Shown: one piece after another, positions 1 through 39,499 of the stretch
Layout: each line of letters opens with the position of its first letter
Numbering within the stretch: the stretch's first letter is position 1
NCBI GenBank assembly: GCA_964544025.1
Contig: CAZJCL010000001.1
Span: forward strand, 55,824 to 95,322
Source of the DNA: an uncultured Opitutales bacterium
GTDB taxonomy: Bacteria; Verrucomicrobiota; Verrucomicrobiia; Opitutales; T3Sed10-336
DNA length: 39,499 nucleotides
Direction: 5' to 3'
The notes under the pieces: model-generated
What the model saw: only the letters and a program-made list of their open reading frames with translations
What the model was told of the DNA's origin: nothing
Databases searched by the model: none
Translations under genes and position numbers: made by a program

Positions 1-2
1 CC

Positions 3-460
3 GGATCGATCCTCGACAGCGGCGACGCGGGCGGGTTGGAGGATGTGATCGCGGCGCAACTTCGCATGGTGGCGGGAACCGGAATCGGGGCGGTCAACAA
101 CCCGATCGAAACCTTGGTGGAAACCGTTTCGGCGCGGGCGGCGGGCGGCGGAATTTATTTGGCGGAATCGGACGATCTGACGGTCGGAGCCGTCGGTGTC
201 GAGGTGTGGCGTTTCCTGCCGGATAGCACCACCATCGCTGTTACGGATGCGGCGCAGAGCGATCTTCGCATCACGGGAGGTGACGGCTCCATCGCGGTTT
301 CGGCGGGCGGAAACGTGACGTCGGACGATGGCGACAGCGACGGATTTGCGATTCAGGCTCCGGGAAGCGGCGCGGTTTCCGTGGTCACGTTGAATGGCGG
401 CGATCTGACGTTGAACGCGGCGGTCGATGCCGGAACCGGGAATGCGATTTTCGTTTCCGA
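3..460 (+). repeat. Last recognisable copy of the ~225-aa higher-order unit that makes up gene 3
   Basis: The translation GSILDSGDAGGLEDVIAAQLRMVAGTGIGAVNNPIETLVETVSARAAGGGIYLAESDDLTVGAVGVEV..AVTDAAQSDLRITGGDGSIAVSAGG matches the gene-3 unit landmarks in order: GSILDGGD, GLRLVAG-GIGTLG, IET, LSARAG-GGI, QSD, GNGSIV. Confidence 0.7.
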
Positions 461-3400
461 TGGGGATTTCGCGCTGAATGACACGACGATCGCGGCGGGC
501 GGAACTTTGACGATCGATGTCGCGGGGAATGCCGTAATCGCCGGAGATGCGACCTTGGGCGGAACGAGCGCGGTTGATGTGGCGGGCAATTTTGAGATGG
601 AAGGAACGTTTGCCGGCGGCGGCGATTCCGTTTTCACGATTGGCGACGACGCGACTGTCATCGGAACCGTGGCGGTGGTCGGGAATCTCGAAATGGAGAG
701 CGGCGGATTTATCGCTCTGGCGGGCGATTTCTCCAGCACCGGCAACAGCGATTTCGTTTCCGCGACGAGTTTCGAGTTGGGTGGTGCGCTGACCGTCGGA
801 GGAGCTTTGGCCATCGACTCCGGAGCTTCGACGAGTTTGAACGGGGATGTCGCGGTGATCGGGGCAAGCGATATCACGAGTGCCGGGCGTCTCGATATCC
901 ACGGAACGTTCGCGAGCGGAAGCGCCGTGATCGCGGTTGGCGGCGAAACCTTTGTCGATGCCGAGGTGACGATACTCGGGAATCTCGCGATCGATGGCGA
1001 TGGTTCCATCGAACTGCGCGACAATTTCGACGTGGGAGGGAACGCGACCATTACGGGCGGCGCGGCTGTCTCGGTTTTCGGCGTTCTGGGGGCGGGGCAG
1101 AATTTGGCGGTCGATGCCGCCGGTGCGATTGTTCTCGATGGGACTTTCGCGGCGGACAGCGCGGCTTCGTTCAAGACCGATGCGGGATTCGATTTTGAAG
1201 GGAGAATCACGACCGGCGGGCCGCTGACGATCGACGCGGCGACGGCGGTTGTGATGACCGGAACCGTCGAAGCGGGCGGCGAGGCGATGATCGCGGCGGG
1301 CGGCGGTGTTTCTCTCGATGGAGATTTGGTTGCGGGCGGAGATACCTCGGTCGCTTCGGACGGGGCGATTACGGTCGATGGTTCGATGGAGGTTGCGGGC
1401 GATTTGGCGTTCAACGGCGTCGGGACGGTCGATTTGGGCGACGATATCCAGGCGTCCGGCAATATCGTCATCGACACTTCGGGAGCGGTTATTTTGGCCG
1501 GAATGATCGTATCCGGCGCCGATACGACGGTGGCCGCGCTGCGTTTCTCGTTGACCGGCGCGCTGACTGCGGGAGGCGCTTTGGAGGTGGAAACGGTGGA
1601 GGAGGCGACTTTTGCGGGGACGGTGTCGGTGGTTGGGAACCACACGCTTTCGGTGGGCGGCGACTTGGTTATTGGCGGAATTCTCACGGTCGGCGGCGAC
1701 GCGATCTGGACCGTCGGCGGCACGACCGGGGTGAACGCCGAGGTCTCGATTTCGGGGGATCTCGATTTGGACGGAACGGGGGCTATCGATTTGCGTCACG
1801 ATTTCGAAATCGGGGAGAACGTCTCGATTTCCGGTGGCGACGCGGTGACGGTGGATGGAGTTTTCTTCGCGGGCGGCGATCTCGAAACCGCGGCGGCGGG
1901 CGCGCTTGTTTGGAGCGGTCAGTCGACGGTTTCCGGCGAGAGCGTGTTGCAATCCGACACCTCGATTTCCCTGACGGGCGATTTCACGGTGGGCGGCGGC
2001 GCGTCGGTTTCGTCGATCGGGTTCGTGGCCATCGACGGAACGGTGGAGGTCGCCGGAGCGAGCGTTTTCAATGTTGGCGACGATTTGTCGATCACCGGCG
2101 CTTACGAATCGGGCGGTGCCACGATCGCGGTGAATGGTGCGACGACGCTGGATGGAGTTTTGACGGTTTCGGGCGGGCTTTCGATCAACGGCGCGGAGGC
2201 GATCGTTCTGGGCGACGAAATTACGGTGACGGGCGATGTCGCGATTTCTGGTGGCGGGACGGTCTCGGTGTCCGGAGATGTTTTCGTGTCGGGCGAATTT
2301 ACGATGGACGCGTCCGACGCGGCGACATTGACGGGGGATTTCGCGGTGGGCGGGAACATTGATTGGACGGTTGGCGGGGATCTGGTTTTCGACGGAACGC
2401 TGGACGCGGAAGCAACGCTGACGTTTGGCGCGTTCGGGAACGCGGAGTTGAGCGGCACGATTTCGGTGGAAGGAATTGTGACCGGAACGGCGAACGGGAA
2501 TTTGTCGGTGGCCGGAAGTTTTGCCGGGGAGGCCGATGCTTCTTTCGGAGCGGGAGGAAGCGCGACGTTCGATGGAACATTTGTATTTGCCGGCGACGTT
2601 CAGGTGGATGGAGAGGGAACGATCGAGCTGAGCGACGCGGTTCATGCGGGAGGAAGTCTTACGATCACCGGAAACGATGCGGTCGTTTTGAGCGGGGATA
2701 TCGCAACGGGCGGGGAATTTATCGTTCGCGCGGCGGGCGAGATCCGGATGGATGGATTGTTCGAGAGCGGGTCGGATGTTGTTTGGGAGACGGGCGAGGG
2801 AATCGTTTTCGACGGAACGTTGGCTGTTTTGAACGGTGACTTCGCGGCGGAAGCGGTCTTGGGAATGACTTTTGCGGGAACGGCGACGGTGTCGGGTTCG
2901 AGTGCGGTGTCGGTGGGCGGTGATCTGGATATTGTTGGGGATGTTACCGGCGGAAGCATGGATTTACGTTCCGGCGGCGCAATGACGATCGCGGCGGCGA
3001 TGACGATCACCGGAAATCTCGCGATCCATTCTGTGGGGGCGCTCTCGGTGGGTCATACGATTTCGGTTTCGCAGGCGTTTTCGGCTACCGGCGAGTCGGA
3101 TGTGACGATCGGTAACACGGGGAACGAGATCGAGGTGGGGAACGGGTTTACCGTTGTCGCGGATGAGGCGGTTTCCGTGAGTGGACAGATCGAGATCGGC
3201 GAGGATGGAGTTTTCGAGGCGGGAACGGATTTGGCGTTGACCGGAACCGTTTCCACTGGCGGCGTGATTCAGGTTTCCGCCGGGGGAGCGGTCAATGTCG
3301 CGGGAACTGTTGCGATCGGCGGTCTTGCGAACGTCGCGGCTGGCGGAGATTTGACGATGGCCGGGAGTTATACGGTCGCGGGCGGCATTGCCTTGACGGC

Positions 3401-7457: not shown

Positions 7458-7540
7458 GATTTTCAGGGCAAACCTTCGTGAAATTGATTTTGGCCGCGGC
7501 GCTCGCGGTTTCCGCTGGATTGTCGCCGGCGGCGGCGCAG
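7454..7540 (+). other. Sec-type signal peptide, with probable SPase I cleavage after AAA/AAQ and no lipobox Cys
   Basis: The N-terminus has a basic start (MRF..K), a hydrophobic core (LILAAALAVSAGL) and an Ala-rich cleavage region (SPAAAQ|DL). Confidence 0.7.
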
Positions 7541-15664: not shown

Positions 15665-15719
15665 TTTTTTCGAATATTAGTTGTTAATTTTACCTCCACC
15701 GTCTAGCACCATCACCTGC
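15665..15719 (+). other. The only intergenic spacer in the window (55 bp, AT-rich relative to its flanks); a possible internal promoter or translation-initiation region for gene 3
   Basis: The sequence is ttttttcgaatattagttgttaattttacctccaccgtctagcaccatcacctgc. A T6 run directly follows the stop. There is a -35-like TTGTTA at 15681-15686 but no convincing -10 box, Shine-Dalgarno sequence or hairpin. Confidence 0.3.
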
Positions 15720-15791
15720 ATGTCAAAAGCCCGAATCGTCAGCTTTGCTGTGGAGGCCCTGGAGTCTCGCATATTGCTGTCGGCGGCGCCT
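15720..15791 (+). other. LEPR-XLL-like N-terminal motif (variant LESRILLSA)
   Basis: The N-terminus is MSKARIVSFAVEALESRILLSAAP, with the motif LESRILLSA at nt 15759-15785. The NCBIfam 'LEPR-XLL domain' is a short N-terminal signature (LEPRxLLSA) of very large repetitive secreted proteins, mainly from Planctomycetes and relatives (recalled from memory, not searched). Confidence 0.6.
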
Positions 15792-33700: not shown

Positions 33701-36700
33701 GGGAGCGGGAGCGAACGCGATCGAAGCGGCGGTGGGGAGGTTGTCGGCGCGGGCGGGTGCGGGCGGTATTAATGTTTTGGCGACGTATGGACTGGTGATT
33801 GGAGACGTTGCGGTGGTGACGCAGCGGGTGGGCGCGGATGGGTCGGTGACGGCGGTGACGGATGAAGCGCAGTCGGATGTGGCGACGATCGCGGGGAACG
33901 GTTCGATCGTGGTGCGGACGCTGGGCGGGGATTTGGTGTTGAACGACGGTTCGGCTCCGGAGGACGGGGTTTCCGTTTGGAGTCATGGCAGCGGGAACAT
34001 CCGGTTGGAATCGGGAGGGGCGACTTCGGATTTGTTGGTGAACGCGGATGTGCGGTCGGATTCGGGGAACGTGACGCTGTTGGCGGGCGGTTCGCTGATT
34101 TTCGCGGATGAGGCGGGGATTTCGACAGACGGGTTTGTCGATTTGGAGGCGATCGCGGGAAGTATTGTTACCGGAGGGGCTTTGCGGATTTCGGGCGGGA
34201 ATATCCGGTTGCATGCCGGGGACGATATTGTTCTGGGGAGCATTTTGAGTTCCGGCGACGTTTCGGTTTCGTCGGCGAATGGATCGATTCTGAATGGGGG
34301 AACCGGCGGGGTGAATATCGTGGCCGACCGGTTGCGGTTGTTCGCCGGAGCGGGAATCGGGACGTTGGGTGCGGGGGCGAATGCGCTGACGACCAGGGTG
34401 AACGCGTTGACGGCGCGGGCGGGATCCGGCGGGATTAATATTTTCAATACGGGATCGGTGACGGTGAGCACGGTCGGCGTGGTGACCGGGCGGGTCGGCA
34501 TCGATGCTTTGGTGACGACGGTGACGGTTCCCGAGCAGTCGGATTTGGCGACGGCGGGGAATGGTTCGATCGTTTTGCGGACGGTGGATGGCGGAATCGC
34601 GTTTGACGAAGGGCGAAGCGTGTCGGCTCACGGAGAGGGGAATGTTCTTTTGGAAGCGACGGGATCGGAAAGCGCGGTTGTTATTGGCGGGGCGGTTTTG
34701 TCTGGAGCGGGACATGTGACGGTGACGGGGGAAAGCGGCGTTACGTTTAGCGGTATTGGTGCGCGGATCGCGACGGGCGGGGCGGGGACGGTGACGGTGG
34801 AATCGGGGCGCGGAATTTCGATGGCGGCGGTTCACGAAATCGTGGCGGAGAGCGGGAATATCCGGCTTGTCGCCGATTTGTCCGTTACGGTTGGACGAAT
34901 CGCGACGGCGGGGGATGTTTCGATGGTGGCCGGCAGGGCGATCCGAGGGGCGGCGGGAAGTTCGGTTCATGTCGAAGCGGCCGGTTTGCGTTTGGATTCG
35001 CGGGCGGGAATCGGCGGGATGGGATTTGCGCCGTTTGTTACGGATGTTTCCGTTCTGAGCGCCCGTGTAGAAGACGGACGTATCACGATTTTGGAAATGG
35101 ACGATCTCACAATCGACGGGGTTGCGGTGATGGTTCACAAGGTCGGGGCGGATGGTTCGACCGCTCCGGTGATGGACGTGTTGCAGTCGGACGTGGTTTC
35201 CGGGGGGGACGTAATTCTCGGAACGGTGAACGGGACGCTGACGTTGAACGACGGTTCGGCTCCCGGTGACGGGATCGCAGTTTCGGCCGGTTTGAACGTG
35301 CGGCTCGAAGCGGCCGGGGCGGAGTCGGATCTTGTGGTGAACGGGGAAATCCGGTCGGCGACCCGGGCGGTCGATTTGCGGGCGGGGAGATCGGTGATTT
35401 TTGATTCCGGCGCGCGGGTGGTCGCGTTGGGGCAGGGGACGGTGAATGTGGAGGCGGCGGGTGGCGGAATCGCGATGGCGGATGGCGCGTTGATCGACAC
35501 GGCGTTGGGGATTCGGCTTCATGCGCACGGAGATGTGGTTTTGGGCGGGTTGCGGGTTTGGGAAACGGTCGGGAAAGTGGCGGTTGTTTCCGCGAGCGGA
35601 TCGATTTTGGACGGGGGCGACGCGCATATCGATGTGGTGGCGAAGGAGCTTTCGCTGTGGGCGGCGGCGGGAATCGGGGAATTGGGCGAGGAGGCGGACG
35701 CGATCGAAACGCGGGTGGGCGTGGTTTCGGCTTGGAGCGGCGGCGGGGTTAATCTTTTGGAGACGGATGGGCTCGTGGTCGGCGCGGTGGCGGTTTCGGT
35801 GCGGCGGGTGGATGCGGATGGAACGGACGCGGAATTTACGGCAGAGGCTTTGTTCGGGTTGACGAGCGGCGGCGCGACGGTGGTGCGGACGGTTGAGGGG
35901 GATCTGGTTTTGACGGCGGGGAGCGGAGGGGAGCGCGCGGTGGAAGCGGCCGGGAACGTTCTATTGGCGGCGGGCGGAATCAGGGCGGATTTGACGGTCG
36001 GGGGCGGCGTGGTTTCCGGAGGGCATTTGACGTTGCTGGCGGGGCGATCGGTGACGGTGGCGTCGGGAGTGACGATTTCGGGCGCGGGAACGGCCAACGT
36101 GGAAGCGGGCACCGGATCGATTTTGATGGGGGCGGGAAGCCGGGTGGAAACGGCGGGGAATGTCCGGATGGCGGCGGCGACGGATGTTGTTTTGGGCGTT
36201 TTGGAGACGGGTGGGGATGTTTCGATTACCGCGGTGGCGGGTTCGATTTTGCGGAACGCGGAGGAAACGGGTGCGTTGGTTGCGCGGATGTTGCGGTTGA
36301 ACGCGGGGGCGGGAATCGGGATTTTGGGTGAGGGAGCTTATCCGTTGTTGACGTCGGTGACGAGGGTTTCGGCGCGGGCGGGGAACGGCGGAATTAATTT
36401 GTTCAATACGGGCAGTTTGACGGTCGGCCTGGTTCGGGTGGCGGTGTCGAAGGTTTTGGCGGACGGCGGAACGGAAATGGTCGAGGATGGGCCCCAGGCG
36501 GATTTGGTGACGGCGGGCGGAGATGGTTCGATCGTGGTGCGGGTATTCGACGGGGATTTAGTTTTGACGGATGGCCCGGGCGGGGAAGCGGGGGTGGCGG
36601 TTTCGGCGCACGGCGCGGGGAATATTTTGCTGGCGACCGACGCGGGGAGGTTGATCCGGGTCAATGCGGGCGTGGTCTCGGCGAATGGGAATATCTCGAT

Positions 36701-39499
36701 TTTGGCGGGCGGGGAGATTGTTTTTTCCTCGGGAGCCGATGTGAGCAGTGGGAGCGGAACGATCGATATCGAAGCGGCGGGCGGATCGATTCGGATGGGG
36801 GGCGGAAGTCGGATTGAGGGGGGCGCGGGGGATATTCGGCTGCACGCGGCGAACGATGTGGCGCTCGGTGGCGTGAGTAATTTAGGAGATGTTTCGATTA
36901 CCGCGTTGAGCGGATCGATTACGGGAGCGGGTTCGGGCGATGTTGACGTGGCGGCGGGCGGGTTGCGGCTTTTCGCGGGCGGTGCAATCGGAGAGCCGAC
37001 GGCGCACTTGCGGACTTCCGTCGCGACTTTGACGGCCCGGTCGGGAACGGGAGGGATTTATGTGGAGGAAACGGATTCGGTGATCGTTGGGTGGGTTGAT
37101 GTTTCGGTGGAACGCGTGGGGGACAATGGCCGGACGACTTCCGTGGGTGCCGGTTTGCAAACGGGTCTCGCGACGGGAGGGAGCGACGGGAATCTGGTTT
37201 TTCGCACGATCGGCGGAAGCATTGTTTTGGATGGGGGTGTCGCGGTTTCGGGTGAGGCGAATCTTCTTTTGAGCGCGGGGGGAGCCGGTTCGGATTTGGT
37301 GGTTAATTCTTCGGTTTCGTTTGGAGCCGGGGCGGCGAGCCTTCACGCGGGGCGGTCGATTTTTGTCGGAGTTGGGGTGGAGATTTCGGGAACGAACGTT
37401 GGCGATCTGGATCTGGAGGCGGTCTCGGGTTCGATCGTGATGGCGGATGGGGCGAGGGTTGCGAGCGGAACCGGAGCGATACGTTTGCGCGCGGCGGGTG
37501 ATGTGATTTTGGGAGAGGTGCGCACCGGTGGCGATGTTTCGATCATCGCGGAAGGCGGCTCGATTTTGGACCGGAATGGGGATTTCGCGAATGTGACGGC
37601 GCGCCGTTTGCGATTGGTGGCGGGGTCGGGAATCGGCACGCTGGGCGCGGAGGCCGATGCGATCGAGACGAAGGTGGAGCGGCTTTCGGCGCGGGCTGGC
37701 GGCGGGGGAATTAACATCCGTCAAGAAGGAGCGCTCGCGATCGGAGATGTATCGGTCTCGGTTCGCCGGGTAGGGATTTCCGGAACCACAATGCGGTTGG
37801 CGGACGCGATGCAGTCGGATGTGGCGACGGTGGGCGGAAACGGGTCGATTGTTATCCGTGTGATTGGTGGCGGGATTACTCTGGACGACGGTTCCGTGCC
37901 GGTAGATGCGGTCGCGGTTCGCGCTCACGGCAGTGGAAATGTTTTAATCGAGGCGAGCGGCGCGGGAGCGGATATTGTGGCGAACGTTTCGTATGTGCAG
38001 TCGGGTTCGGGTCACGTTTCTCTGCTGGCTGGTCGATCCGTGATTCTTCAGGGCGGGGCGGGAGTGATGACGGGCGGCGCGGGAACGGTGAGCGTGGAAG
38101 CGCTGGCGGGAGTGGTTTGGATGTCGGCCACGAGCAATATTTTCAGCGGAACCGGGAATGTCCGGTTGGTGGCGGCGACGGACGCGGCGATCGGACATGT
38201 GGCGACGGCGGGAGATGTGTCGATTCGGGCGGGCGGAAATATTTTCGGGATTTCGGATTTCAATTTGGTCGCGCACCGGGCGCGATTGGAGGCGGGCGGA
38301 AGTATCGGAGTTTCAAGGGGGGCGGGTCGCGCGATTGGGATGGAGGTTTCGGTGGTGAGTGCTCTAGCGGGCGGCGGAGGAGTTCATCTGTTTAACGGAA
38401 TCGCGCTGACGGTTGGCGAGGTGGAAGTCGCGGTGTGGAAGGTCGAGGCGGATGGCGGGGTGTCGGTGGTGACGGAGGCGGCGTTGTCGGGAATTCGCGC
38501 AACGGCGGGCGATGGCACGGTCGTTGTTCGGAGTTTGGGCGGAGTTGTCGTGGACGACGAAATCATGGCGGATGGAGTGGGGACGATTTTGGTGGAGGCG
38601 ATCGGCGTGGACGCTGTTTTGGCGGTGAATGCGGGGGTGCGATCCGGGATTGGGCATGTGACGTTGATCGGCGATTCCGTTTCGGTGGCGGATGGCGTGA
38701 CGGTGTTTAGCGGCGCGTCGGGGACGGTGGAGATCGTGGCGCGTGGAGGTGCTATTGCGATGGGCGTGGGGAGTCGCGTGGATTCGGGCTCGGGGAATGT
38801 GCGGTTGGCGGCGGCGGGGGATGTCGTTTTGGGACGTTTGGTTACCACGCGCGCGGTTTCGATTTTGGCGGCGGGAGGATCGATTTTGGGTGCCGGGAAT
38901 GAGGAACCGGTTGTGACGGCTTCGGCGTTGCGGATGGTTGCGGGCGGCGCGATTGGAACGGGAGCGAATCCGCTGGAGATCGATGTGGGGACGGTGAGCG
39001 CGCGGGCGGAGAATGGCGGGATTTATTTGCGGGCGGGTTCGGCGATTGTTGTTGGATCGGTGGCGGTGGCGGTGCAACGAGTGGGGGAATCCGGCGGGGT
39101 GTCGGAGGTTTCGGATGCGGCTTTGGCGGGAGTGGCGACGTTGGGGGGGAATGGATCGGTTGTGATTCGGGCGGGCGTGGGTTTGACAGTTAACGCGGGT
39201 GTCGCGGCGCATGGGAGCGGGAATGTTCTGCTGGAGGCGGGCGCTGTGGATGCGGAAATTTCGCTTCGGGCGAGTGTGACGTCGGGGAGCGGACATATTT
39301 CGGTTTTGGCGGGGCTGTCGGTGACGTTTGGCGCGGGCGCGGATATCGTGAGCGGCGGAGCGGGAACGGTGGATATCGCGGCGGGCGGCGGGGCGATTTG
39401 GATGGCGGACGCGAGCCGGATCGACGCGGGGGCGGGGAATGTGCGGTTGAGCGCGGCGGGCGATGTGACGTTGGGCGGAATTTTGACGACGGGGAACGT
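15720..39499 (+). CDS. Giant secreted beta-solenoid-like repeat protein of at least 7,926 codons; the 3' end lies beyond the window (not in the supplied ORF track)
   Basis: The ATG is at 15720 and the nearest in-frame upstream stop is TAG 15678-15680. I found no in-frame stop through nt 39499, by hand translation of long stretches plus checks of suspicious taa/tag/tga strings I noticed. The track lists no + ORF in this frame after 15664, which is only possible if the frame never closes. The translation is periodic and protein-like, whereas the antisense ORFs are Arg/Pro/His-rich. Confidence 0.93.
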   Translation, partial: MSKARIVSFAVEALESRILLSAAPLDSMLAGEEAAPEAVYVSAIEVEETVCGAAAMEMEEGSEELFDGAADLESTASPLEEPGEMAMQPFSEVETSAPAIFQSGFTIIDPGTTHTFRSTTGGIFFSGPGSIDGTPGATEENVRFISATAISIDVPIGGASPIHDLIVSAGSNIFFGGSIHITGDLIVERGAQVTFDRDVTVEGNIIIGDESAPGDVGGVTFNANSIVNAGGEIRIHTSGGVEFRNSVGATMVPDLVEVVAGGTVNFFHELTAGTAAVSGANVNFERAVRVDEASITAADLLTIGNVFEIGNGDAVLTANRVGFTGGYGSLQSTGAASTLTIRPFTASRAIGIGDPSGGTFNRLQISHVELNAINNGFRELIIGDLVAGTGEVRIANIGLAQTVAIAQIQNAATFAGGSVIVEGRVDVDGLADYLRLVARTGDVVVDEAINQSATERNGWVRIEAARDIVVNRPVFALDRISLTAGYFGGNGSVIVHSTGADSGQLWTTGTGPAFSERRIEISAGEGGGDIVWTDGSGAVTFWAAGSGGAIAMRAPAGAIRQNGGVIRAEVLAVRSFGDVSIVSAEVDRIGLVEFSGAALFSGVADSIDGIVIAGPGSLNFAGLQSLVVDRVTTDGGDITLITRAVIGADLTLGRIASGSGNISLSADGSIVDGLAGAGIVNLATSGRVALIASLGIGGSGSADIDTRVGGLAATNLATGGIYIHDRGNLVIDGAVETLAGDGSIILVAEGAVFTVNATVSAHGGGDVLLDAPAGDLVLDAAVRSAEGHLTIRAENNLALAGSASVWTGAPGTILLRTATGAISMSGTSAVAATGSNLRVEGGGDIGLGNLSAERVAVVSAGGSIFNSSGSAANVTADELRLEAAKAVGSAAVALTTDVARIAAFAGSADGVSKGIYLAQDGAVSVSEIGPVSVEAVSAEGGSSTVADVGGLSGLRTGNNGNIVLVAAGEARLDDGAGDGIAVSADGSGRVRIEAAGAGSDVIALGDVRSATGHVTMVAAGAVSLGSGVSVATAGAGTIFIRAEGGSVTMAGDARAVAANSAVRVSALSDIYLGEIAGADVSVEAEGGSILAATGSTMNVAASRLRLEADGSAGTEAAPLVTSVTLLAAVARGNGGGRGIFVRQYGDVSVTPLRIDGFAVSADGSEVPWSDGMLPVVAENGGDVRIVADGSVDLIAGTGSGNAVLAGGFVEVRAQGVGSDLTVSGDVRAENGAVDLFAGGSVELVVGSAVVAAGNKAVAIRAEGGTLTMADGATVATAAGRVTLFAKGDVLVSAIISETGDLFVASEEGAIFDNTAAETPNLATLGTAHLLAATGIGVAGDGDLDSGVSFLTARNTTSGDIAIHAARNLTISSAAEITSGGVRNEGVGGSVLIDTRNGSIAVAGEIFAEGGNILLETSGVGGGNLRIDAPVTAVRGAITLHAREAFSIDAAVAAVAGGTIFLWAENGGLTLSPGATVTTADESIFIRAHGNAIVTGIDAGTGGVSVVSGTGAIIDGGDANRDMAAGSLRLSAFGGIGAGNALDIDVRNLAAAANGGIDLSNFGDVAVDTVSAVSVERVLRDNTVAMVGDAGRVSDLTTTGGNIRLVSETGAITLRDGFDNDLVAVDAGGGSISIFAATEIAQFANVVTAGSGTIALGAESGSILMSDGAAAVGVAGSIVYSAGGDIWVSRIETASGDLSLTAGSRILDNTVAETPNLITSGLVSLDARNGIGDVGVADIDTEAGSLVAVNRIGGRIVIEEADGLVVSGSGISNLGGDILVTVVAGNLVVGGDVSAGGAGNVLLRTTAGSGAISGTANVSTDSGHITIFSPRAIQWSGSARIMAGGAGSLTVSAGARSVSFGSGVLVGSTSGDARLTAAADVSLGGVSTSGKVFVQAGSGSIFNNSDTYVNIVASGVRLEAGTGVGVLGASARPVTIDAGTVAARATSGGINLLESTSVSVGSVSVLTRRVNADGSFTEETGAAVSDLATTGGNGSIVLRTLDGGIRLLDGDVANGVAVQAHGSGNVLLEAGGSGAEILAGADVRSVSGHVSVVAAGSVAFSAGADILTGLAGTIYVEAVAGSVAMDDASRFSSVSGGIRVVAGGDVLLGGISTGGNVAIIAGGSILDNGDTRVDVSANGLLMNAGVGVGTLGAGANAIETSVSVLTARGGAGGIHVRESGDLVVGDVTVTVRKVSADGTVAAVVEGAQSDVATVSGDGSIVLRLTNGSLRLTAGATTSGNLAVSAHGAGNVLLDTIGAFTEIFADAGIGSGSGNISVTSAIRAGFGAGADIRTGSDGTIDVVARTGFISMDGDSVFSAEEGDIRLMAPAEILLGSLRTGGNVSVISQLASILDNGNGGVNIEARGARLFALADIGILVPIGVGSGPNPIDTDVAILTARSQAGDINILERRSVTVADVAAMVNRVNPDGSTAEVRDEAQADILTLGENGSIVLRSEGGDIFLSDGAMLVDGSAGEDGIAVSAHGSGSILIEAMGAGTDVSATADIRSGTGHITLIGARSLEFGGDTEVFTGGGGTLYLEAVTGNVEQAGDSRFVADQGDVRIAAGNSILLGGVTTNGDVSLIAGRGSILDSGNVVGRENVVARDLRLVAGSGIGTPGNHFETRVEVLSARAGSDGIFLWETDGLTVDATGATVSRVNADNTLTTVSDAEQSGVATVAGNGSIVIRTLGGNLTLDDGVAGDGDAISAHGSGNILLEAAGAGTDILAGAAIRSGSGHVTLLAARAVYFSTGADVATGGAGTIEIAARDGSITMADGVRFSSGSGDLRLHAAGSVWVGGLATGGNVSILAATGSILGNGDAQIEVVASGLRLVAGVGVGKLGVGAVPFRTTVATVTARAGGGGINLLETDALVVDDVAVTVKRVNQDATVTDFTDAAQADVATVSENGGIVIRTLAGSLTLNDGAAGADGWAVSADGSGNVLVEAGGVGAIVLANAGIVAGSGHVSVVAARSVSFAGSAGIATGGSGTIFMASISGNVSQADASRFVAENGDVRVIAAGDFRIGGITTGGNVSLIAESGSILDGGDAFGGEDVIANRLRMTAGAGIGTGNAIETRVSRLSARAGAGGIFIRETDALTIDDTWASVLRVLADGGTVGTLDSAQSDVRTADGGSIVIRSAGGSITLNDGTALADGVSVSAAGGGNVLVETIGGGGDVGVSADIVSGSGHVSVLAGRNVLFGAGADIWTGGAGTLNIEAATGSVVMDDETRFGAETGSVRVYAAVDVIVGGVSTGGDVSISAVGGSIRSAGDSYLDVVADGLRLVAGGGIGKSGAENDPIRTSVAVLSARTGSGGINLVEADALVVDDVRVAVERVNFDASTTAAVDAVQSGIVSGGSVLLRTLGGDLTLNAGSAPANGIAIEKTGAGTILVEAAGAGTSVFVNGEIAGYRGDVSVIADRSVVFADAGISLNVIFSGTIFVRAGAGSIVMEGESIFRSAGGDMRLEAFEDVRLGQLRAGVYGGGTTISVTATSGSILNNAPEMSLNVAADRLRLVAGIGVGVLGELAKAVETQVGSVAVRAGGGGINILNRGDLAVEGVASKVNRVNEDGSVTALAEAVLSDVRTVSGNGSIVLRTLGGDLTLNDGTAPADGIAVSAHGTGNIRLEAAGAESDLLVNANVESGGGYISMLGGRDIRFAAGVRVSGSGKTLDLEAGSGSIVMGDGTVFDGGAADIRLRAGLDVVVGGIATSGNVSITSVAGSVLSGGKAEVDVAANGLRLAAGTGVGTLGVGAKALRTAVATLSARSETGSINILNTGMLAVDDVAVSVFRVGIDGVADVVTDAAQSDVRTFGGNGSIILRTVAGNLTLNDGTASADGVAVSAHGTGNILLEAGGAVSDLAVNAEVRSGSGNITLLAGRNVGIGAVSVTTGGAGTIDVEAEAGSISMADGGSISAADGNVRLHAAGDVILSGIRTSGDVAVTANWGSILDGGDTYVDVAANGLRLLSRGGIGTLGTGANGIETAVATLSARADDGGIHIVEADALVVGTVGVAVRRVMANGLLTWVTYLGQSDVRTTGDGSIVLRTISGDLTLTDGTGPADGVAVSARVNVLLEAGGADSDLLVNADVRLELGAASLVAGGSVTLGAGVRIANGGRGSIEVEASGGSITMSEGSSISGGSGTVHLWAAVDVSLGEVSTTRDVWIVALAGSISDNGVDSVNVAARNLRMVAGVGIGTLGAGADAIETRVSVLNARAGSGGINILEADDLEIGAFAVSVRRVERDGTIGGEVPLRAAAEDGRVATTDGDGSIVVRTVAGSLVLGDGVWAVPATVSADGSGSILLEANGAGSDVIVGGRVEAVSGSITVAAARSVSILGDFWIWSGTGTTDVEARGGSIEMSPLAWVGGNHLRLRAAEDVVLGSAFAAGNASITAVDGSISRGSAGGIDVTAGGLRLSAGTGIGTLGAGAMPLRTNAMILSARAGGGGVNVLEANALVVGTVSVTVQRVMADGSLTALTDAGQSDAATTGGNGSIVLRTVVGSLGLTDGVGPADGVAVSAHGTGNVLLEAGGAVSDLAVNADVRSGSGNVTLRAGRNVTFAGTGVLTGGMGTVFVEAAGGSIGMGDASLIFAESGNVRLRAAGSVTLGGVWTGGHVSIIAANGSILDGGDSYTDVVASGLRLVAGVGIGTLGGGANGIDVAAGTLSARGGSSGVHVVATNALTVGTVSVTVQRVAADGSVTPVTDAALSDVRTTGGDGSVVLRTLAGNLTLTDGTAFADGVAVSAHGAGNVLLEAGGAVSDLAVNAEVRSGSGNITLLAGRSVRIGEVAVTTGGAGTVDVEAGAGSISVADGGAVSAGDGNVRLRAAGDVVLSGIATGGDVSVTSVSGWILDGGDTFADVAANGLRLSAGAGIGTLGAGANGIETVVARLSARAGGGGIHVLEADALIVGTVGVAVRRVTADGSVTLVTDEAQSDVVTTGGDGSIVLRTVAGSLTLTDGTGLADGVAVSAHGAGNVLVEAGGAGADLAVNAAVVSGSGHVTLFARRSAIFAASSVATGTGGTISVEAATGSISMSVGSRVDGAGSIRLYAAESVRLSEVVSTGGDVSVTAVSGSILGNGDGRVALAGEGIRLVAGVGIGTLGAVVNPVGMSGGTVSARAGSGGINLLETDSLVVGTVSVTVERVAADGSVSTVTDAALSDVRTTGGNGSVVIRAVKGSLTLTDGMGAGDGVSVAAHGSGNVLLQAGGSSSDILIHASVTSGTGHLSLIAGRNVTLSAGTLVSSGGTGTVDIEATAGSIMMADTSRVASEIGTIRLRAGTDVTLGGVEAKGNVSVEAIQGWILDGGDTYTDVIAQGLNLVAGVGVGRLGAGANAIETQAVILNARAGSGGINVVEADGLRTGVSMSMHVFRVLPSATLFLRAAGVATGIQTIGGDGSVVIRTLAGSLELNSVVANDYRAAIAHGSGNILLHAGGAGSNLTLNGGVVSGEGHISLIANRSVVIAQPREVATGSGSVNVEASQGTIFMVNGSRILSGAGNIRLHAAEDVALGGIATTGDVSISAVAGSILDNGDAHLDVAANGLRIVAGVGIGTLGTGANGIETAVATVSARAGSGGVNILEADALTVGDVAVTVRKVRADATVESVQDAVQSDVRTISGNGSIVIRTVAGGLTLNDGTAAADGVAVSAHGSGNVFLEAGGSESLLNVNADVVSGSGHITLFSGRDAVLSGAQVLSGGLGTVVIRTGGSITMSEDSRIDGGAGNIQLAAARDVWLGGVRTSGGVSITAVSGSVLDSGGTSVNVEASGLRLMAGAGIGTLGAESNPIRTAVATLNAEAGAGGINILEADSLEIVIGDPVVFIVRRVLETGGTMGFIELYHRVLTTTSGNGDIVIRTTNGSIRLDSADGEWRGVAAHSSGNILLEAGGANSDLSAHVSVMSGGGHVTLLAGRNIELFAEVSTGIGTGEAGTVILEAGSGSITMADASLISTASGSVRLHAALDIVLGGILAGGNVAITAVGGSILDGGDVLEDVVAPGLRLVAGEGIGRLGAGANAIEAAVGRLSARAGAGGINVLATYGLVIGDVAVVTQRVGADGSVTAVTDEAQSDVATIAGNGSIVVRTLGGDLVLNDGSAPEDGVSVWSHGSGNIRLESGGATSDLLVNADVRSDSGNVTLLAGGSLIFADEAGISTDGFVDLEAIAGSIVTGGALRISGGNIRLHAGDDIVLGSILSSGDVSVSSANGSILNGGTGGVNIVADRLRLFAGAGIGTLGAGANALTTRVNALTARAGSGGINIFNTGSVTVSTVGVVTGRVGIDALVTTVTVPEQSDLATAGNGSIVLRTVDGGIAFDEGRSVSAHGEGNVLLEATGSESAVVIGGAVLSGAGHVTVTGESGVTFSGIGARIATGGAGTVTVESGRGISMAAVHEIVAESGNIRLVADLSVTVGRIATAGDVSMVAGRAIRGAAGSSVHVEAAGLRLDSRAGIGGMGFAPFVTDVSVLSARVEDGRITILEMDDLTIDGVAVMVHKVGADGSTAPVMDVLQSDVVSGGDVILGTVNGTLTLNDGSAPGDGIAVSAGLNVRLEAAGAESDLVVNGEIRSATRAVDLRAGRSVIFDSGARVVALGQGTVNVEAAGGGIAMADGALIDTALGIRLHAHGDVVLGGLRVWETVGKVAVVSASGSILDGGDAHIDVVAKELSLWAAAGIGELGEEADAIETRVGVVSAWSGGGVNLLETDGLVVGAVAVSVRRVDADGTDAEFTAEALFGLTSGGATVVRTVEGDLVLTAGSGGERAVEAAGNVLLAAGGIRADLTVGGGVVSGGHLTLLAGRSVTVASGVTISGAGTANVEAGTGSILMGAGSRVETAGNVRMAAATDVVLGVLETGGDVSITAVAGSILRNAEETGALVARMLRLNAGAGIGILGEGAYPLLTSVTRVSARAGNGGINLFNTGSLTVGLVRVAVSKVLADGGTEMVEDGPQADLVTAGGDGSIVVRVFDGDLVLTDGPGGEAGVAVSAHGAGNILLATDAGRLIRVNAGVVSANGNISILAGGEIVFSSGADVSSGSGTIDIEAAGGSIRMGGGSRIEGGAGDIRLHAANDVALGGVSNLGDVSITALSGSITGAGSGDVDVAAGGLRLFAGGAIGEPTAHLRTSVATLTARSGTGGIYVEETDSVIVGWVDVSVERVGDNGRTTSVGAGLQTGLATGGSDGNLVFRTIGGSIVLDGGVAVSGEANLLLSAGGAGSDLVVNSSVSFGAGAASLHAGRSIFVGVGVEISGTNVGDLDLEAVSGSIVMADGARVASGTGAIRLRAAGDVILGEVRTGGDVSIIAEGGSILDRNGDFANVTARRLRLVAGSGIGTLGAEADAIETKVERLSARAGGGGINIRQEGALAIGDVSVSVRRVGISGTTMRLADAMQSDVATVGGNGSIVIRVIGGGITLDDGSVPVDAVAVRAHGSGNVLIEASGAGADIVANVSYVQSGSGHVSLLAGRSVILQGGAGVMTGGAGTVSVEALAGVVWMSATSNIFSGTGNVRLVAATDAAIGHVATAGDVSIRAGGNIFGISDFNLVAHRARLEAGGSIGVSRGAGRAIGMEVSVVSALAGGGGVHLFNGIALTVGEVEVAVWKVEADGGVSVVTEAALSGIRATAGDGTVVVRSLGGVVVDDEIMADGVGTILVEAIGVDAVLAVNAGVRSGIGHVTLIGDSVSVADGVTVFSGASGTVEIVARGGAIAMGVGSRVDSGSGNVRLAAAGDVVLGRLVTTRAVSILAAGGSILGAGNEEPVVTASALRMVAGGAIGTGANPLEIDVGTVSARAENGGIYLRAGSAIVVGSVAVAVQRVGESGGVSEVSDAALAGVATLGGNGSVVIRAGVGLTVNAGVAAHGSGNVLLEAGAVDAEISLRASVTSGSGHISVLAGLSVTFGAGADIVSGGAGTVDIAAGGGAIWMADASRIDAGAGNVRLSAAGDVTLGGILTTGN
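15792..16013 (+). other. Acidic, Glu-rich low-complexity linker following the N-terminal motif
   Basis: The sequence is LDSMLAGEEAAPEAVYVSAIEVEETVCGAAAMEMEEGSEELFDGAADLESTASPLEEPGEMAMQPFSEVETSAP. It contains the only Cys I saw in gene 3. Confidence 0.6.
17700..39499 (+). repeat. About 33 tandem copies of a ~225-aa higher-order solenoid unit (645-708 bp in the regular part, 576-666 bp in the first six)
   Basis: The 'G-S-I-[LF]-[DN]' anchor occurs at about nt 17712, 18302, 18968, 19633, 20247, 20823, 21410, 22083, 22762, 23470, 24143, 24823, 25491, 26176, 26856, 27530, 28198, 28873, 29553, 30228, 30900, 31578, 32255, 32925, 33610, 34280, 34940, 35597, 36240, 36910, 37555, 38230 and 38875. A second landmark, SAHGSGN[VI]LLEA, recurs with the same period. 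Confidence 0.88.

What the first reader, a model, noticed from the sequence alone, without database searches (positions are those of the whole stretch)
1..39499. Three-gene giant locus: two paralogous solenoid giants flank a translationally coupled propeller plus poly-Ig rod protein
The window holds more than 13,100 codons (2,484 + 2,736 + at least 7,926) in three same-strand genes. They are separated only by a 4-nt overlap and a 55-bp spacer. There is no room for any regulator, transporter, chaperone or enzyme.

All three products look extracellular. Gene 2 has a Sec signal peptide, gene 3 has a LEPR-XLL-like N-terminus, and genes 1 and 3 have acidic, Cys-free/Cys-poor solenoid repeats.

In the visible parts I see none of the hallmarks of described giant-adhesin systems:
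- no TPS domain with NPNL/NPNGI
- no C-terminal autotransporter barrel
- no GGxGxD RTX nonapeptides
- no LPXTG motif

My hypothesis is a co-expressed extracellular fibre, adhesion or capture apparatus. Gene 2 would be a rod from 28 Ig-like domains with a propeller head. Genes 1 and 3 would be long solenoid filaments. This is inference; nothing in the window assigns a function.
Basis: inference. Interest (0 to 1): 0.85.

Follow-up and report, generated by a model that had tools for sequence, protein, structure and literature searches.

The report
Paired giant fibre genes with partners
The window is the middle of a gene cluster conserved in marine Verrucomicrobia, in which two enormous beta-solenoid "LEPR-XLL" proteins are each followed by a small secreted propeller-shaped partner, and here one partner has grown from about 460 to 2,736 residues by gaining 28 Ig-like domains.

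Summary
There are three same-strand ORFs: g1 (3-7457, open at its 5' end), g2 (7454-15664) and g3 (15720 to the window end, still open). They are joined by an ATGA overlap and a 55-bp spacer. All three products are acidic and nearly Cys-free.

g3 belongs to the NCBI-annotated class of LEPR-XLL giant proteins. After its N-terminal region it carries at least 33 tandem ~225-aa modules. One module models confidently as an all-beta solenoid, and the module matches no Pfam or NCBIfam family. A profile of it finds 2,113 cluster representatives.

g1 is the C-terminal end of a second giant of the same family. g2 has a Sec signal peptide, a Ycf48/BNR-like propeller, 28 CHB_HEX_C_1 domains and three copies of a ~70-aa C-terminal domain.

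The order giant, partner, giant recurs in Thalassobacterium sedimentorum and three metagenome contigs. In the three loci where the end of the second giant was read, a second propeller partner follows it. The start-stop overlap recurs too. Giant C-termini and partners fall into the same two classes.

Orthologous partners have 0-1 Ig-like domain, so the 28-copy rod is a lineage-specific expansion. No function has been tested. A surface fibre with a docking partner is my inference. The closest studied relatives are Cag_663 and Cag_665 of Chlorobium chlorochromatii.

The parts
3..7457 (+). g1: the C-terminal 2,484 codons of a LEPR-XLL-family giant ('giant 1' type). Its start lies upstream of the window.
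   Evidence: The frame is open from base 3. There are no Pfam or NCBIfam hits. Its C-terminus is homologous to the extreme C-terminus of family giants.
60..575 (+). One ~225-aa solenoid module (g1 aa 20-191), the same module that builds g3.
   Evidence: The module HMM gives E 1.4e-32. The motif L.M.AG.GIG...P.ET.V.T.SARA..GGIYL is also shared with Marinobacter protein P0001.
576..6299 (+). A solenoid of a different type with a 20/40-aa period (g1 aa ~192-2099).
   Evidence: Autocorrelation peaks at 20, 40, 60 and 80 aa. Only weak similarity to FHA/TpsA-type beta-helix shafts was found; the best hits are P0001 and P0127.
6300..7454 (+). The conserved class-A C-terminal domain of giant 1 (g1 aa 2100-2484), proposed to be the docking site for the partner.
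   Evidence: It is 55% identical to the end of P0147 and 33-34% identical to the ends of P0042, P0066 and P0100. The class A/B block structure matches the partner classes.
7454..15664 (+). g2: the class-A propeller partner, expanded to 2,736 aa. Its start overlaps the g1 stop as ATGA.
   Evidence: It is 40% identical to the Thalassobacterium 464-aa orthologue over the propeller and first CHB_HEX domain.
7454..7540 (+). Sec-type signal peptide (g2 aa 1-29, AAA/QD site). g2 has no Cys, so it is not a lipoprotein.
   Evidence: Read directly from the sequence. No signal-peptide predictor was available.
7541..8383 (+). BNR/Ycf48-like beta-propeller (g2 aa ~30-310).
   Evidence: Pfam PSII_BNR scores 30.5 bits against a cutoff of 27. 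The PDB profile search finds Ycf48 and the GH74 propeller. Two Asp-box-like motifs are present.
8402..14746 (+). 27 tandem CHB_HEX_C_1 Ig-like domains with a 78-aa period and no linkers.
14750..14953 (+). C-dom copy 1 (~70 aa, motif Y.LQ.S.DL..W ... FFRV).
   Evidence: The domain is homologous to the C-terminal domain of nearly all partner orthologues.
14984..15220 (+). The 28th CHB_HEX_C_1 domain.
15221..15661 (+). C-dom copies 2 and 3. No Pfam family matches.
   Evidence: The single-sequence AF2 model was unusable.
15665..15719 (.). 55-bp AT-rich spacer between g2 and g3.
   Evidence: No consensus promoter or terminator lies inside it. The equivalent gap is a few to 133 nt in orthologous loci.
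15720..39497 (+). g3: a LEPR-XLL giant ('giant 2' type), with 7,926 codons visible. It runs off the 3' end of the window.
   Evidence: Its N-terminal 700 aa are 51%, 41% and 40% identical to P0059, P0021 and P0017, which occupy the giant-2 position in their loci.
15744..15809 (+). LEPR-XLL N-terminal motif (g3 aa 9-30, FAVEALESRILLSAAPLD).
   Evidence: NCBIfam NF012209 scores 25 bits against a cutoff of 17. The family consensus is F..E.LE.RILLSADP, with no hydrophobic core.
15810..17786 (+). N-terminal solenoid region shared by the family (g3 aa ~31-689).
17787..39497 (+). At least 33 tandem ~225-aa beta-solenoid modules (g3 aa ~690-7926).
   Evidence: Module HMM hits and alignment A1. The AF2 model has pLDDT 95.6 and is all-beta.

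Best explanation
The window is the central part of a conserved operon found in Verrucomicrobiota (Opitutia, and MAGs labelled Kiritimatiellia). The operon is built from a duplicated two-gene cassette. Each cassette consists of a LEPR-XLL giant beta-solenoid protein and, immediately downstream and usually translationally coupled, a small Sec-exported partner made of a beta-propeller, 0-1 Ig-like domain and a ~70-aa C-terminal domain (C-dom).

g1 is the tail of giant 1, g2 is its class-A partner and g3 is giant 2. Its class-B partner, and possibly a small autotransporter-type barrel, should lie beyond the 3' end of the window.

Shown here:
- family membership
- the solenoid module
- the conserved gene order and start-stop overlap
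- the matched A/B classes of giant C-termini and partners

Inferred:
- The giants leave the cell without a Sec signal. [quoted passage not shown]
- Outside the cell they fold into rigid acidic fibres of the order of 0.1-0.2 micrometres.
- Each partner, made in roughly 1:1 ratio through the coupling, docks with its propeller on the conserved C-terminal domain of its own giant. Its C-dom binds a second target, either the cell envelope or a ligand.
- In this lineage, 28 Ig-like domains between the propeller and the C-dom turn a compact adaptor into a rod of roughly 100 nm. This lengthens the reach or stand-off of the assembly.
For: Family and module:
- g3 hits the LEPR-XLL model above its curated cutoff.
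- g3 contains at least 33 modules.
- One module models as an all-beta solenoid at pLDDT 95.6.
- A profile search finds 2,113 representatives, which are giants with up to ~40 matched stretches. NCBI names several of them 'LEPR-XLL domain-containing protein'.
- 67 of the retrieved sequences (including near-identical cluster members) share the N-terminal consensus F..E.LE.RILLSADP.
- The g1 C-terminus matches the extreme C-terminus of family giants.

Synteny:
- Thalassobacterium: 6,462 aa, 464 aa, 4,533 aa, 397 aa.
- ENA contig: 6,460, 446, 5,669, 396.
- JGI contig: 4,981, 474, giant 2 (called as 2,345- and 3,280-aa pieces), 631, then a 332-aa barrel.
- JGI fragment: giant, 472, LEPR giant.
- Opitutales MAG: 7,278, 383, then a 328-aa barrel.
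- Kiritimatiellae-labelled MAG: 5,445, 464.
- L008: giant followed by a propeller protein.
- A start-stop overlap joins giant and partner at six of the ten junctions examined.

Pairing:
- The bit-score matrices of the partners and of the giant C-termini split into the same two classes.
- All 6 looked-up giants with the conserved C-terminus have a partner downstream. P0015, which lacks that C-terminus, does not.

Extracytoplasmic location:
- g2 has a signal peptide.
- All three proteins are nearly Cys-free and have pI near 4-4.5.

Precedent:
- Giants with a LEPRxLL N-terminus in Chl. chlorochromatii are reported to be transcribed over their full length and to reach the partner cell.
- The related planctomycete motif RRLxxExLExRxLLA marks cell-surface proteins.
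Against: - There is no expression, localisation or interaction data for this subfamily.
- No export machinery is consistently linked. A TolC/MFP cluster lies near one related locus only, and no ABC transporter gene was seen in the 10 kb read.
- The LEPR-XLL segment has no hydrophobic core, so the export route is unknown.
- Docking of the propeller on the giant's C-terminus rests only on gene adjacency and parallel classes. The within-class similarity partly mirrors species phylogeny.
- The propeller could instead be an enzyme. It gives weak hits to F510_1955 glycosylhydrolase and the GH74 propeller.
- The module model has no significant structural neighbour (best Foldseek E 0.1, TM 0.2-0.35). 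Its exact geometry, and therefore the fibre length, is uncertain.
- The N-terminus of g1 and the C-terminus of g3 are outside the window.
Confidence: 0.6

Rival explanations
1. A LapA/MpIBP-like type I secretion adhesin. The giants would be exported C-terminus first by a T1SS encoded elsewhere, and the LEPR-XLL/N-terminal region would stay in the envelope as a retention module. The conserved C-terminus would be the secretion signal rather than a docking site. g2 would be an independent secreted protein that happens to be co-regulated.
For: - The giants lack a Sec signal, are acidic and are Cys-free.
- They have a conserved extreme C-terminus.
- C-terminus-first export through TolC/SapC/HlyD-like proteins is proposed for the LEPRxLL-bearing giants Cag_663 and Cag_665.
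- TolC-like and MFP genes lie near one related locus.
Against: - There are no RTX nonapeptides.
- No ABC transporter was seen in any flank read. The TolC/MFP cluster is in one locus only and sits beside a RiPP-type HExxH protease.
- From my own knowledge, T1SS signals are short and poorly conserved. Here a ~385-aa domain is conserved and falls into the same classes as the partner.
- The recurring start-stop overlap argues for a stoichiometric partner.
Confidence: 0.2
2. A device for cell-to-cell contact or injection. [quoted passage not shown] The propeller partner would be a tip or receptor-binding element.
For: [quoted passage not shown]
- The module profile gives a weak hit to the VgrG spike (E 0.0056).
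Against: - No toxin or effector domain was found in the parts of the two giants covered by the window, about 10,400 residues.
- The VgrG hit is not significant.
- The carriers identified here include a cultured isolate (Thalassobacterium) and environmental MAGs. From my own knowledge, these groups are free-living polysaccharide degraders.
- Homology of the module to the Cag beta-helix could not be tested.
Confidence: 0.1
3. A polysaccharide-capture or enzyme-display scaffold. The propeller partner would be a glycoside hydrolase or lectin, and the solenoids would be CASH-like carbohydrate-binding surfaces. The whole would work like an extended cellulosome-type structure.
For: - CHB_HEX_C_1 domains are named after, and found in, chitobiases and beta-hexosaminidases.
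- The propeller gives weak hits to F510_1955 glycosylhydrolase and the GH74 xyloglucanase propeller.
- Foldseek's top, non-significant neighbours are tapirin and pectate lyases.
- A GH127 gene lies next to one related giant.
Against: - All enzyme-family hits are far below their curated cutoffs.
- Ycf48-like propellers are not enzymes.
- The invariant module positions are almost all Gly, which points to structural rather than catalytic conservation.
- No CAZyme gene is consistently linked.
Confidence: 0.1

Closest known systems
LEPR-XLL domain-containing giant proteins (NCBIfam NF012209, 'LEPR-8K'), for example WP_308985623.1 of Thalassobacterium sedimentorum
   Same: g3 has the N-terminal motif above the curated cutoff. 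It shares the N-terminal 700-aa region (41% identity to P0021, which is WP_308985623.1), the 225-aa modules and the position in the operon.
   Different: The NCBIfam model covers only the 24-aa motif. Neither the module, nor the conserved C-terminal domain, nor the partner gene has a Pfam or NCBIfam model that matched in these searches. g3 is longer than its orthologues (at least 7,926 aa against about 4,500-5,800 aa).
Cag_663 and Cag_665 of Chlorobium chlorochromatii (bioRxiv 10.64898/2026.03.19.712371)
   Same: They have a LEPRxLL N-terminus and are two tandem giants separated by one small gene. They carry a long parallel beta-helix with predicted cation sites about every 249 aa, against a 225-aa module here. 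They lack a classical signal, and there is evidence that they leave the cell.
   Different: The gene between them is TolC-like, not a propeller/Ig protein. They are 20,647 and 36,806 aa long, with other N-terminal architectures and MtxA-like C-termini. The organism belongs to a different phylum. Sequence homology of the beta-helix to the module here could not be tested.
Planctomycete N-terminal motif RRLxxExLExRxLLA (Studholme et al. 2004, as cited in PMC8567305)
   Same: The core LE.R.LL(S/A) lies at the extreme N-terminus of cell-surface proteins and was proposed to be a novel export signal.
   Different: That motif is found on many proteins of ordinary size. Its mechanism has not been established.
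Filamentous haemagglutinin / TpsA (two-partner secretion)
   Same: These are long acidic beta-helical shafts. The only database similarity of the central region of g1 is to such shafts.
   Different: g3 has no TPS domain and no NPNL/NPNGI motif, and no TpsB was called in any flank read. The similarity is weak and repeat-driven (24-28% identity).
Giant T1SS adhesins (LapA, MpIBP, SiiE)
   Same: They share the overall logic of a non-Sec giant with an N-terminal region, a repetitive extender and a C-terminal region (comparison from my own knowledge).
   Different: Their extenders are Ig-like domains, whereas here the extender is a solenoid. This locus has no RTX repeats and no linked ABC/MFP/OMP genes.
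SprB with SprF, and the PorZ-type attachment components of the type IX system (comparison from memory, not tested)
   Same: A giant surface filament has a small cognate accessory gene next to it. PorZ also combines beta-propellers with a C-terminal beta-sandwich domain.
   Different: These belong to Bacteroidota. No homology was detected here, and the only related Pfam hit (GldM_3rd, E 0.12) is noise.

Membership tests
LEPR-XLL giant proteins (NCBIfam NF012209) | The 24-aa N-terminal LEPRxLL domain scores above the curated cutoff. | tested here: met
   g3 aa 9-30 score 25 bits against a cutoff of 17. The N-terminus of g1 lies outside the window.
LEPR-XLL giant proteins (NCBIfam NF012209) | Very large size (thousands of residues). 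| tested here: met
   At least 7,926 codons of g3 are visible. Family members run up to 7,902 aa.
Unnamed 225-aa solenoid-module family (profile A1) | Tandem ~225-aa modules that match the profile. | tested here: met
   g3 gives 36 HMM stretches and g1 gives one clear module. The profile finds 2,113 representatives at E<=1e-3.
Giant-plus-propeller-partner cassette (defined here) | A conserved class A or B C-terminal domain on the giant, followed at once by a propeller + C-dom gene. | tested here: met
   Met for g1 and g2, and seen in six other loci. For g3 the 3' end is outside the window.
Two-partner secretion (TpsA/TpsB) | An N-terminal TPS domain (PF05860) with NPNL/NPNGI, and a TpsB gene nearby. 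| tested here: not met
   g3 has no Pfam hit, the motifs are absent, and no TpsB was called in the window or in related flanks. The N-terminus of g1 cannot be tested.
Classical autotransporter (type Va) | A C-terminal beta-barrel (PF03797) on the same polypeptide. | tested here: not met
   The g1 C-terminus has no such domain. A separate ~330-aa barrel-only gene follows the cassette in two related loci. The g3 C-terminus was not seen.
RTX / T1SS adhesins | GGxGxD nonapeptide repeats and linked ABC, MFP and OMP genes. | tested here: not met
   The motif counts in the two giants (0 and 2) are at or below shuffle expectation. No transporter gene lies in the window. One related locus has TolC and MFP genes, with no ABC transporter in the 10 kb read.
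Sortase substrates | An LPXTG motif. | tested here: not met
   No occurrences in g1, g2 or g3.
Cag_663/Cag_665-type giants | Sequence homology of the beta-helix, a TolC-like gene between the giants, and an MtxA-like C-terminus. | not testable with these tools
   The Cag sequences could not be fetched. The gene between the giants here is a propeller/Ig protein, not a TolC-like one.
CHB_HEX_C_1 (PF13290) | The domain scores above the gathering cutoff. | tested here: met
   g2 gives 28 stretches and 1,584.9 bits.
Ycf48/BNR beta-propeller (PF14870) | The domain scores above the gathering cutoff. | tested here: met
   30.5 bits against a cutoff of 27, which is marginal. The PDB profile search hits Ycf48 at E 9.6e-6. 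The NCBIfam Ycf48 equivalog is far below its cutoff, so this is the same fold and not an orthologue.

The most novel reading that the evidence does not exclude
The LEPR-XLL giant, its cognate propeller/C-dom partner and, where present, the small autotransporter-type barrel together form a previously undescribed, dedicated export-and-anchoring pathway for fibres of about 4,500-10,000 residues in PVC bacteria. The partner would capture the giant's conserved C-terminal domain. The number of Ig-like domains in the partner (0, 1 or 28) would set how far the fibre is held from the cell.
Probability: 0.25. Interest if true: 0.8.

Novelty: new variant of a known kind. Interest (0 to 1): 0.6.

Why it matters
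- Giant genes are common in PVC bacteria, but very few have a testable mechanism.
- This work ties a large, unmodelled family of solenoid giants (over 2,000 cluster representatives, no Pfam model) to a specific, co-inherited small partner. It also shows that the pair was duplicated as a unit.
- This gives a concrete handle in a cultured strain, Thalassobacterium sedimentorum SDUM461004. Its four genes can be checked for co-transcription, surface location and partner dependence.
- The window itself offers a natural experiment. The same partner carries 28 Ig-like domains here against one elsewhere. This predicts a measurable difference in fibre geometry.

Tried and rejected
Searches that gave little or nothing:
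- The word-indexed protein search failed on these low-complexity giants. The g3 N-terminus found nothing and the module profile found only seven short proteins. The exhaustive HMM search was what worked.
- Exact look-ups of g2, P0001 and P0019 found no contig.
- The 8-sequence C-terminal alignment was too divergent to drive the genome scan. A 3-sequence version found one locus.
- The metagenome scan with the propeller alignment gave only one relevant locus out of five.
- The single-sequence AF2 model of the g2 C-terminal domains was unusable (pLDDT 47).
- Foldseek against PDB and against viral structures gave no significant neighbour for the module.
- PDB sequence searches with the module and C-terminal profiles gave nothing significant.
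- A literature search for surface appendages in Coraliomargaritaceae was uninformative.

Ideas rejected:
- Assembly artefact: the repeats are at most 74% identical.
- Anti-phage DUF499: the NCBIfam hit of 297 bits against a cutoff of 1,200 covers a ~50-residue part of the model matched repeatedly along the g2 domain array.
- Chlamydial Pmp: E 0.12.
- The TolC/MFP/HExxH cluster as the dedicated exporter: it was seen next to one locus only.
- Antisense ORFs in the window: I take these to be GC-rich shadow frames.

Full report
**Observation**

The window holds three same-strand open frames and nothing else of note. Frame 3 is open from base 3 to 7454, which gives 2,484 codons with no start inside the window. 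An ATG at 7454 overlaps the g1 stop as ATGA and opens a 2,736-codon ORF that ends at 15664. After a 55-bp spacer, an ATG at 15720 opens a frame that is still open at 39497, giving 7,926 codons. No Rfam family and no tRNA gene is present. The many antisense ORFs lie in a 60-65% GC sequence and I take them to be shadow frames.

All three products are acidic, with pI 4.05, 4.48 and 4.45. They are nearly free of Cys (0, 0 and 1 residues) and poor in Lys.

The repeats are diverged. DNA copies are at most ~74% identical and the longest exact direct repeat is 59 bp. Repeat collapse or expansion during assembly is therefore unlikely.

GGxGxD in the two giants occurs at or below shuffle expectation, and there is no NPNL/NPNGI, LPXTG, TPS or autotransporter domain.

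**g3**

Residues 9-30 (FAVEALESRILLSAAPLD) hit NCBIfam NF012209, the 'LEPR-8K' model that names LEPR-XLL domain-containing proteins. The score is 25 bits, above the curated cutoff of 17.

From about residue 690 to the end of the window, g3 is a tandem array of ~225-aa modules. An HMM built from 11 units finds 36 stretches in g3. In an alignment of 26 units, the others are 39-71% identical to the first, and the invariant positions are almost all Gly.

AlphaFold2, given this alignment, models one module as an uninterrupted all-beta solenoid. Mean pLDDT is 95.6 and the model has 26 short strands, no helices, no low-confidence linker and no terminal cap. I infer from this that the array forms a continuous rod. 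A two-module model was not run.

The module has no Pfam or NCBIfam family. It has no significant relative in the PDB by sequence. It has none by fold either: the best Foldseek E-value is 0.1 and the hit lists are dominated by beta-helices.

**The family**

An exhaustive profile search of 1.84 billion cluster representatives found 2,113 proteins at E<=1e-3 and 558 at E<=1e-30. Many of them are 4,000-7,900 aa long with 20-40 matched stretches.

Named members come from Horticoccus luteus, Opitutales MAGs, Thalassobacterium sedimentorum, MAGs labelled Kiritimatiellia, Planctomicrobium, and bins labelled Halarcobacter and Limnospira. Their names are 'hypothetical', 'beta strand repeat-containing' or 'LEPR-XLL domain-containing protein'.

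Sixty-seven retrieved sequences share the N-terminal consensus F..E.LE.RILLSADP after a short basic stretch. Some of these are near-identical cluster members. None has a hydrophobic core.

The first 700 aa of g3 are 51%, 41% and 40% identical to the N-termini of P0059, P0021 and P0017. The word-indexed search had missed all of this.

**g1**

g1 opens with one module (aa 20-191, E 1.4e-32). It continues with ~1,900 aa of a different solenoid that has a 20/40-aa period. That region resembles only FHA-type shafts weakly, plus a Marinobacter hypothetical protein.

The last 385 aa match the extreme C-terminus of family giants. Identity is 55% to P0147 and 33-34% to P0042, P0066 and P0100. Of these, P0042 and P0066 have LEPR N-termini and P0100 does too. 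P0147 is a C-terminal fragment.

g1 is therefore the tail of a second LEPR-XLL-family giant, not a separate kind of protein.

**g2**

g2 starts with a signal-peptide-like N-terminus and contains no Cys. Next comes a BNR/Ycf48-like propeller (Pfam PSII_BNR 30.5 bits against a cutoff of 27; PDB profile hits to Ycf48 and the GH74 propeller). Then come 28 CHB_HEX_C_1 domains on an exact 78-aa period. Three copies of a ~70-aa domain with the motif Y.LQ.S.DL..W...FYRV match no Pfam family.

**Neighbourhoods**

The table lists the gene order found in each related locus. Sizes are in amino acids.

| Locus | Source | Gene order |
|---|---|---|
| L002/L015 | Thalassobacterium sedimentorum SDUM461004 (Puniceicoccales) | giant 6,462; partner 464 (signal peptide, propeller, one CHB_HEX, C-dom; 40% identical to g2); LEPR-XLL giant 4,533; propeller + C-dom protein 397; contig end |
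| L014 | ENA contig | 6,460; 446; 5,669; 396 |
| L005/L007 | JGI contig | 4,981; 474; giant 2, called as 2,345- and 3,280-aa pieces plus two short ORFs; 631-aa propeller protein; 332-aa autotransporter-type barrel with no passenger |
| L006 | 7-kb JGI contig | giant end; 472; giant start |
| L013 | Opitutales MAG | 7,278; 383; 328-aa barrel |
| L016 | MAG labelled Kiritimatiellae | 5,445; 464 |
| L008 | LFIK01007939.1 | giant end overlapped by a propeller protein |

Counting the window, ten junctions between a giant and its partner were seen, and the genes overlap at six of them. The one giant that lacks the conserved C-terminus, P0015, is followed by a GH127 gene and has no partner.

**Pairing**

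All-against-all bit scores split the partners into two classes. Class A follows giant 1 and carries a CHB_HEX domain. Class B follows giant 2. The last 400 aa of the giants split into exactly the same two classes.

This means the giant-plus-partner cassette was duplicated as a unit and the pairs have stayed together since. g1 and g2 are a class-A pair. By its N-terminus and its position, g3 is a giant 2, so a class-B partner is expected beyond the window.

Every other class-A partner has one CHB_HEX domain and is 446-474 aa long. g2, with 28, is a singleton cluster in the 15-billion-protein collection.

**Mechanism**

The following is shown:
- The family and the module.
- The conserved order of the genes.
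- The recurring start-stop overlap.
- The matched classes of giants and partners.
- The signal-peptide-like N-terminus of the partner.

The rest is inferred. The giants have no Sec-type signal. They would be exported either through the LEPR-XLL N-terminus or C-terminus first. The related motif was proposed as a novel export signal on planctomycete surface proteins (PMC8567305). [quoted passage not shown]

Outside the cell they would form rigid acidic solenoid fibres. At roughly nine rungs per module, the visible part of g3 would be of the order of 0.15 micrometres. This figure is a rough estimate.

The partner would dock on its giant's C-terminal domain through the propeller and bind something else through the C-dom. 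The Ig-like domains would set the distance between the two binding ends. At ~3.5-4 nm per domain, 28 domains give about 100 nm.

Which end faces the cell cannot be decided from the data. The small barrel gene seen in two loci is a candidate outer-membrane dock.

**Comparison with known systems**

The closest studied system is the pair Cag_663 and Cag_665 of Chlorobium chlorochromatii. They have LEPRxLL N-termini and a long parallel beta-helix with predicted cation sites about every 249 aa. They are two giants separated by one small gene. They are reported to be transcribed over their whole length and to reach the partner bacterium (bioRxiv 10.64898/2026.03.19.712371). There the small gene is TolC-like, whereas here it is a propeller/Ig protein.

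Two-partner secretion, classical autotransporter, RTX/T1SS adhesin and sortase-substrate memberships were tested and not met. In my literature searches, I found no description of the 225-aa module, the conserved C-terminal domain or the partner cassette. The databases name the partners only 'chitobiase/beta-hexosaminidase C-terminal domain-containing', 'photosystem II stability/assembly factor-like' or 'hypothetical'.

**Verdict**

This is a new variant of a known kind: LEPR-XLL giants, now with a defined cognate partner and, in this lineage, a unique 28-domain expansion of that partner. Function is untested.

Noticed in passing
L003 1-9829, L013 1-9899, L016 1-9927: Directly upstream of three module-family giants (P0015, P0034, P0054) lie genes called at 21,146, 21,533 and 20,427 aa. 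Their last ~3,300 aa have no module and no similarity to g1 or g3. They share a C-terminal motif: GRA[DN]GRH, then about ten residues, then [FY].[ED]S.TFR[AS]P. This looks like a second, unrelated family of giants that is repeatedly linked to LEPR-module giants.
   Followed up: partly
L007 21789-22787; L013 33013-33999: Stand-alone ~330-aa autotransporter-type beta-barrel proteins (PF03797, E 3e-25) with a signal peptide and no passenger follow the class-B partner in two loci from different lineages. The two are clearly homologous to each other.
   Followed up: partly
L007 23239-29843: A cluster lies downstream of one cassette: a TolC-like OEP, an MFP, a GAF-MFP fusion, a 715-aa HExxH membrane protein (best NCBIfam match is the daptide intramembrane metalloprotease, below cutoff) and a SecA gene. 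It was not seen in the other loci, so it is probably unrelated.
   Followed up: partly
window 7454-15664: NCBIfam's anti-phage DUF499 equivalog hits g2 at E 2.8e-88, but with 297 bits against a cutoff of 1,200. The hit covers a ~50-residue part of the model matched repeatedly along the g2 domain array. It is a repeat-driven false lead.
   Followed up: yes
window 576-6299: The central part of g1 is a 20/40-aa-period solenoid. At the same position its orthologues (L002, L005, L014) have 225-aa modules. The closest matches are a Marinobacter sp. DSM 26671 hypothetical protein (P0001) and P0127. This suggests the shaft was replaced or invaded by another repeat type.
   Followed up: partly
L005 10001-27038 (same region as L007 2452-19843); L001 1-14161: Giant 2 in the JGI contig is called as pieces of 2,345, 48, 124 and 3,280 aa. 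A giant in GCA_037975565.1 is split into about a dozen short ORFs. I take these to be frameshifts or sequencing errors in giant genes, which also fragment the family in the protein databases.
   Followed up: no
P0137, P0095, P0162: In some family members the g3-type N-terminal region starts about 4,200-6,100 residues into the protein, after long unrelated N-terminal parts. The LEPR motif is still at residue ~13-15 in P0137 and P0162. These are larger architectures of the same family.
   Followed up: partly
window 1-39499: GC skew on the coding strand is strongly positive throughout (0.13-0.44 in 2-kb windows) and is lowest over the g2 Ig array. I attribute it to the Gly/Val/Asp/Ala-rich codon content rather than to replication.
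   Followed up: no
L016 28027-28863: A rhomboid-family gene follows the partner in the MAG labelled Kiritimatiellae. Whether it is linked to the cassette is unknown.
   Followed up: no
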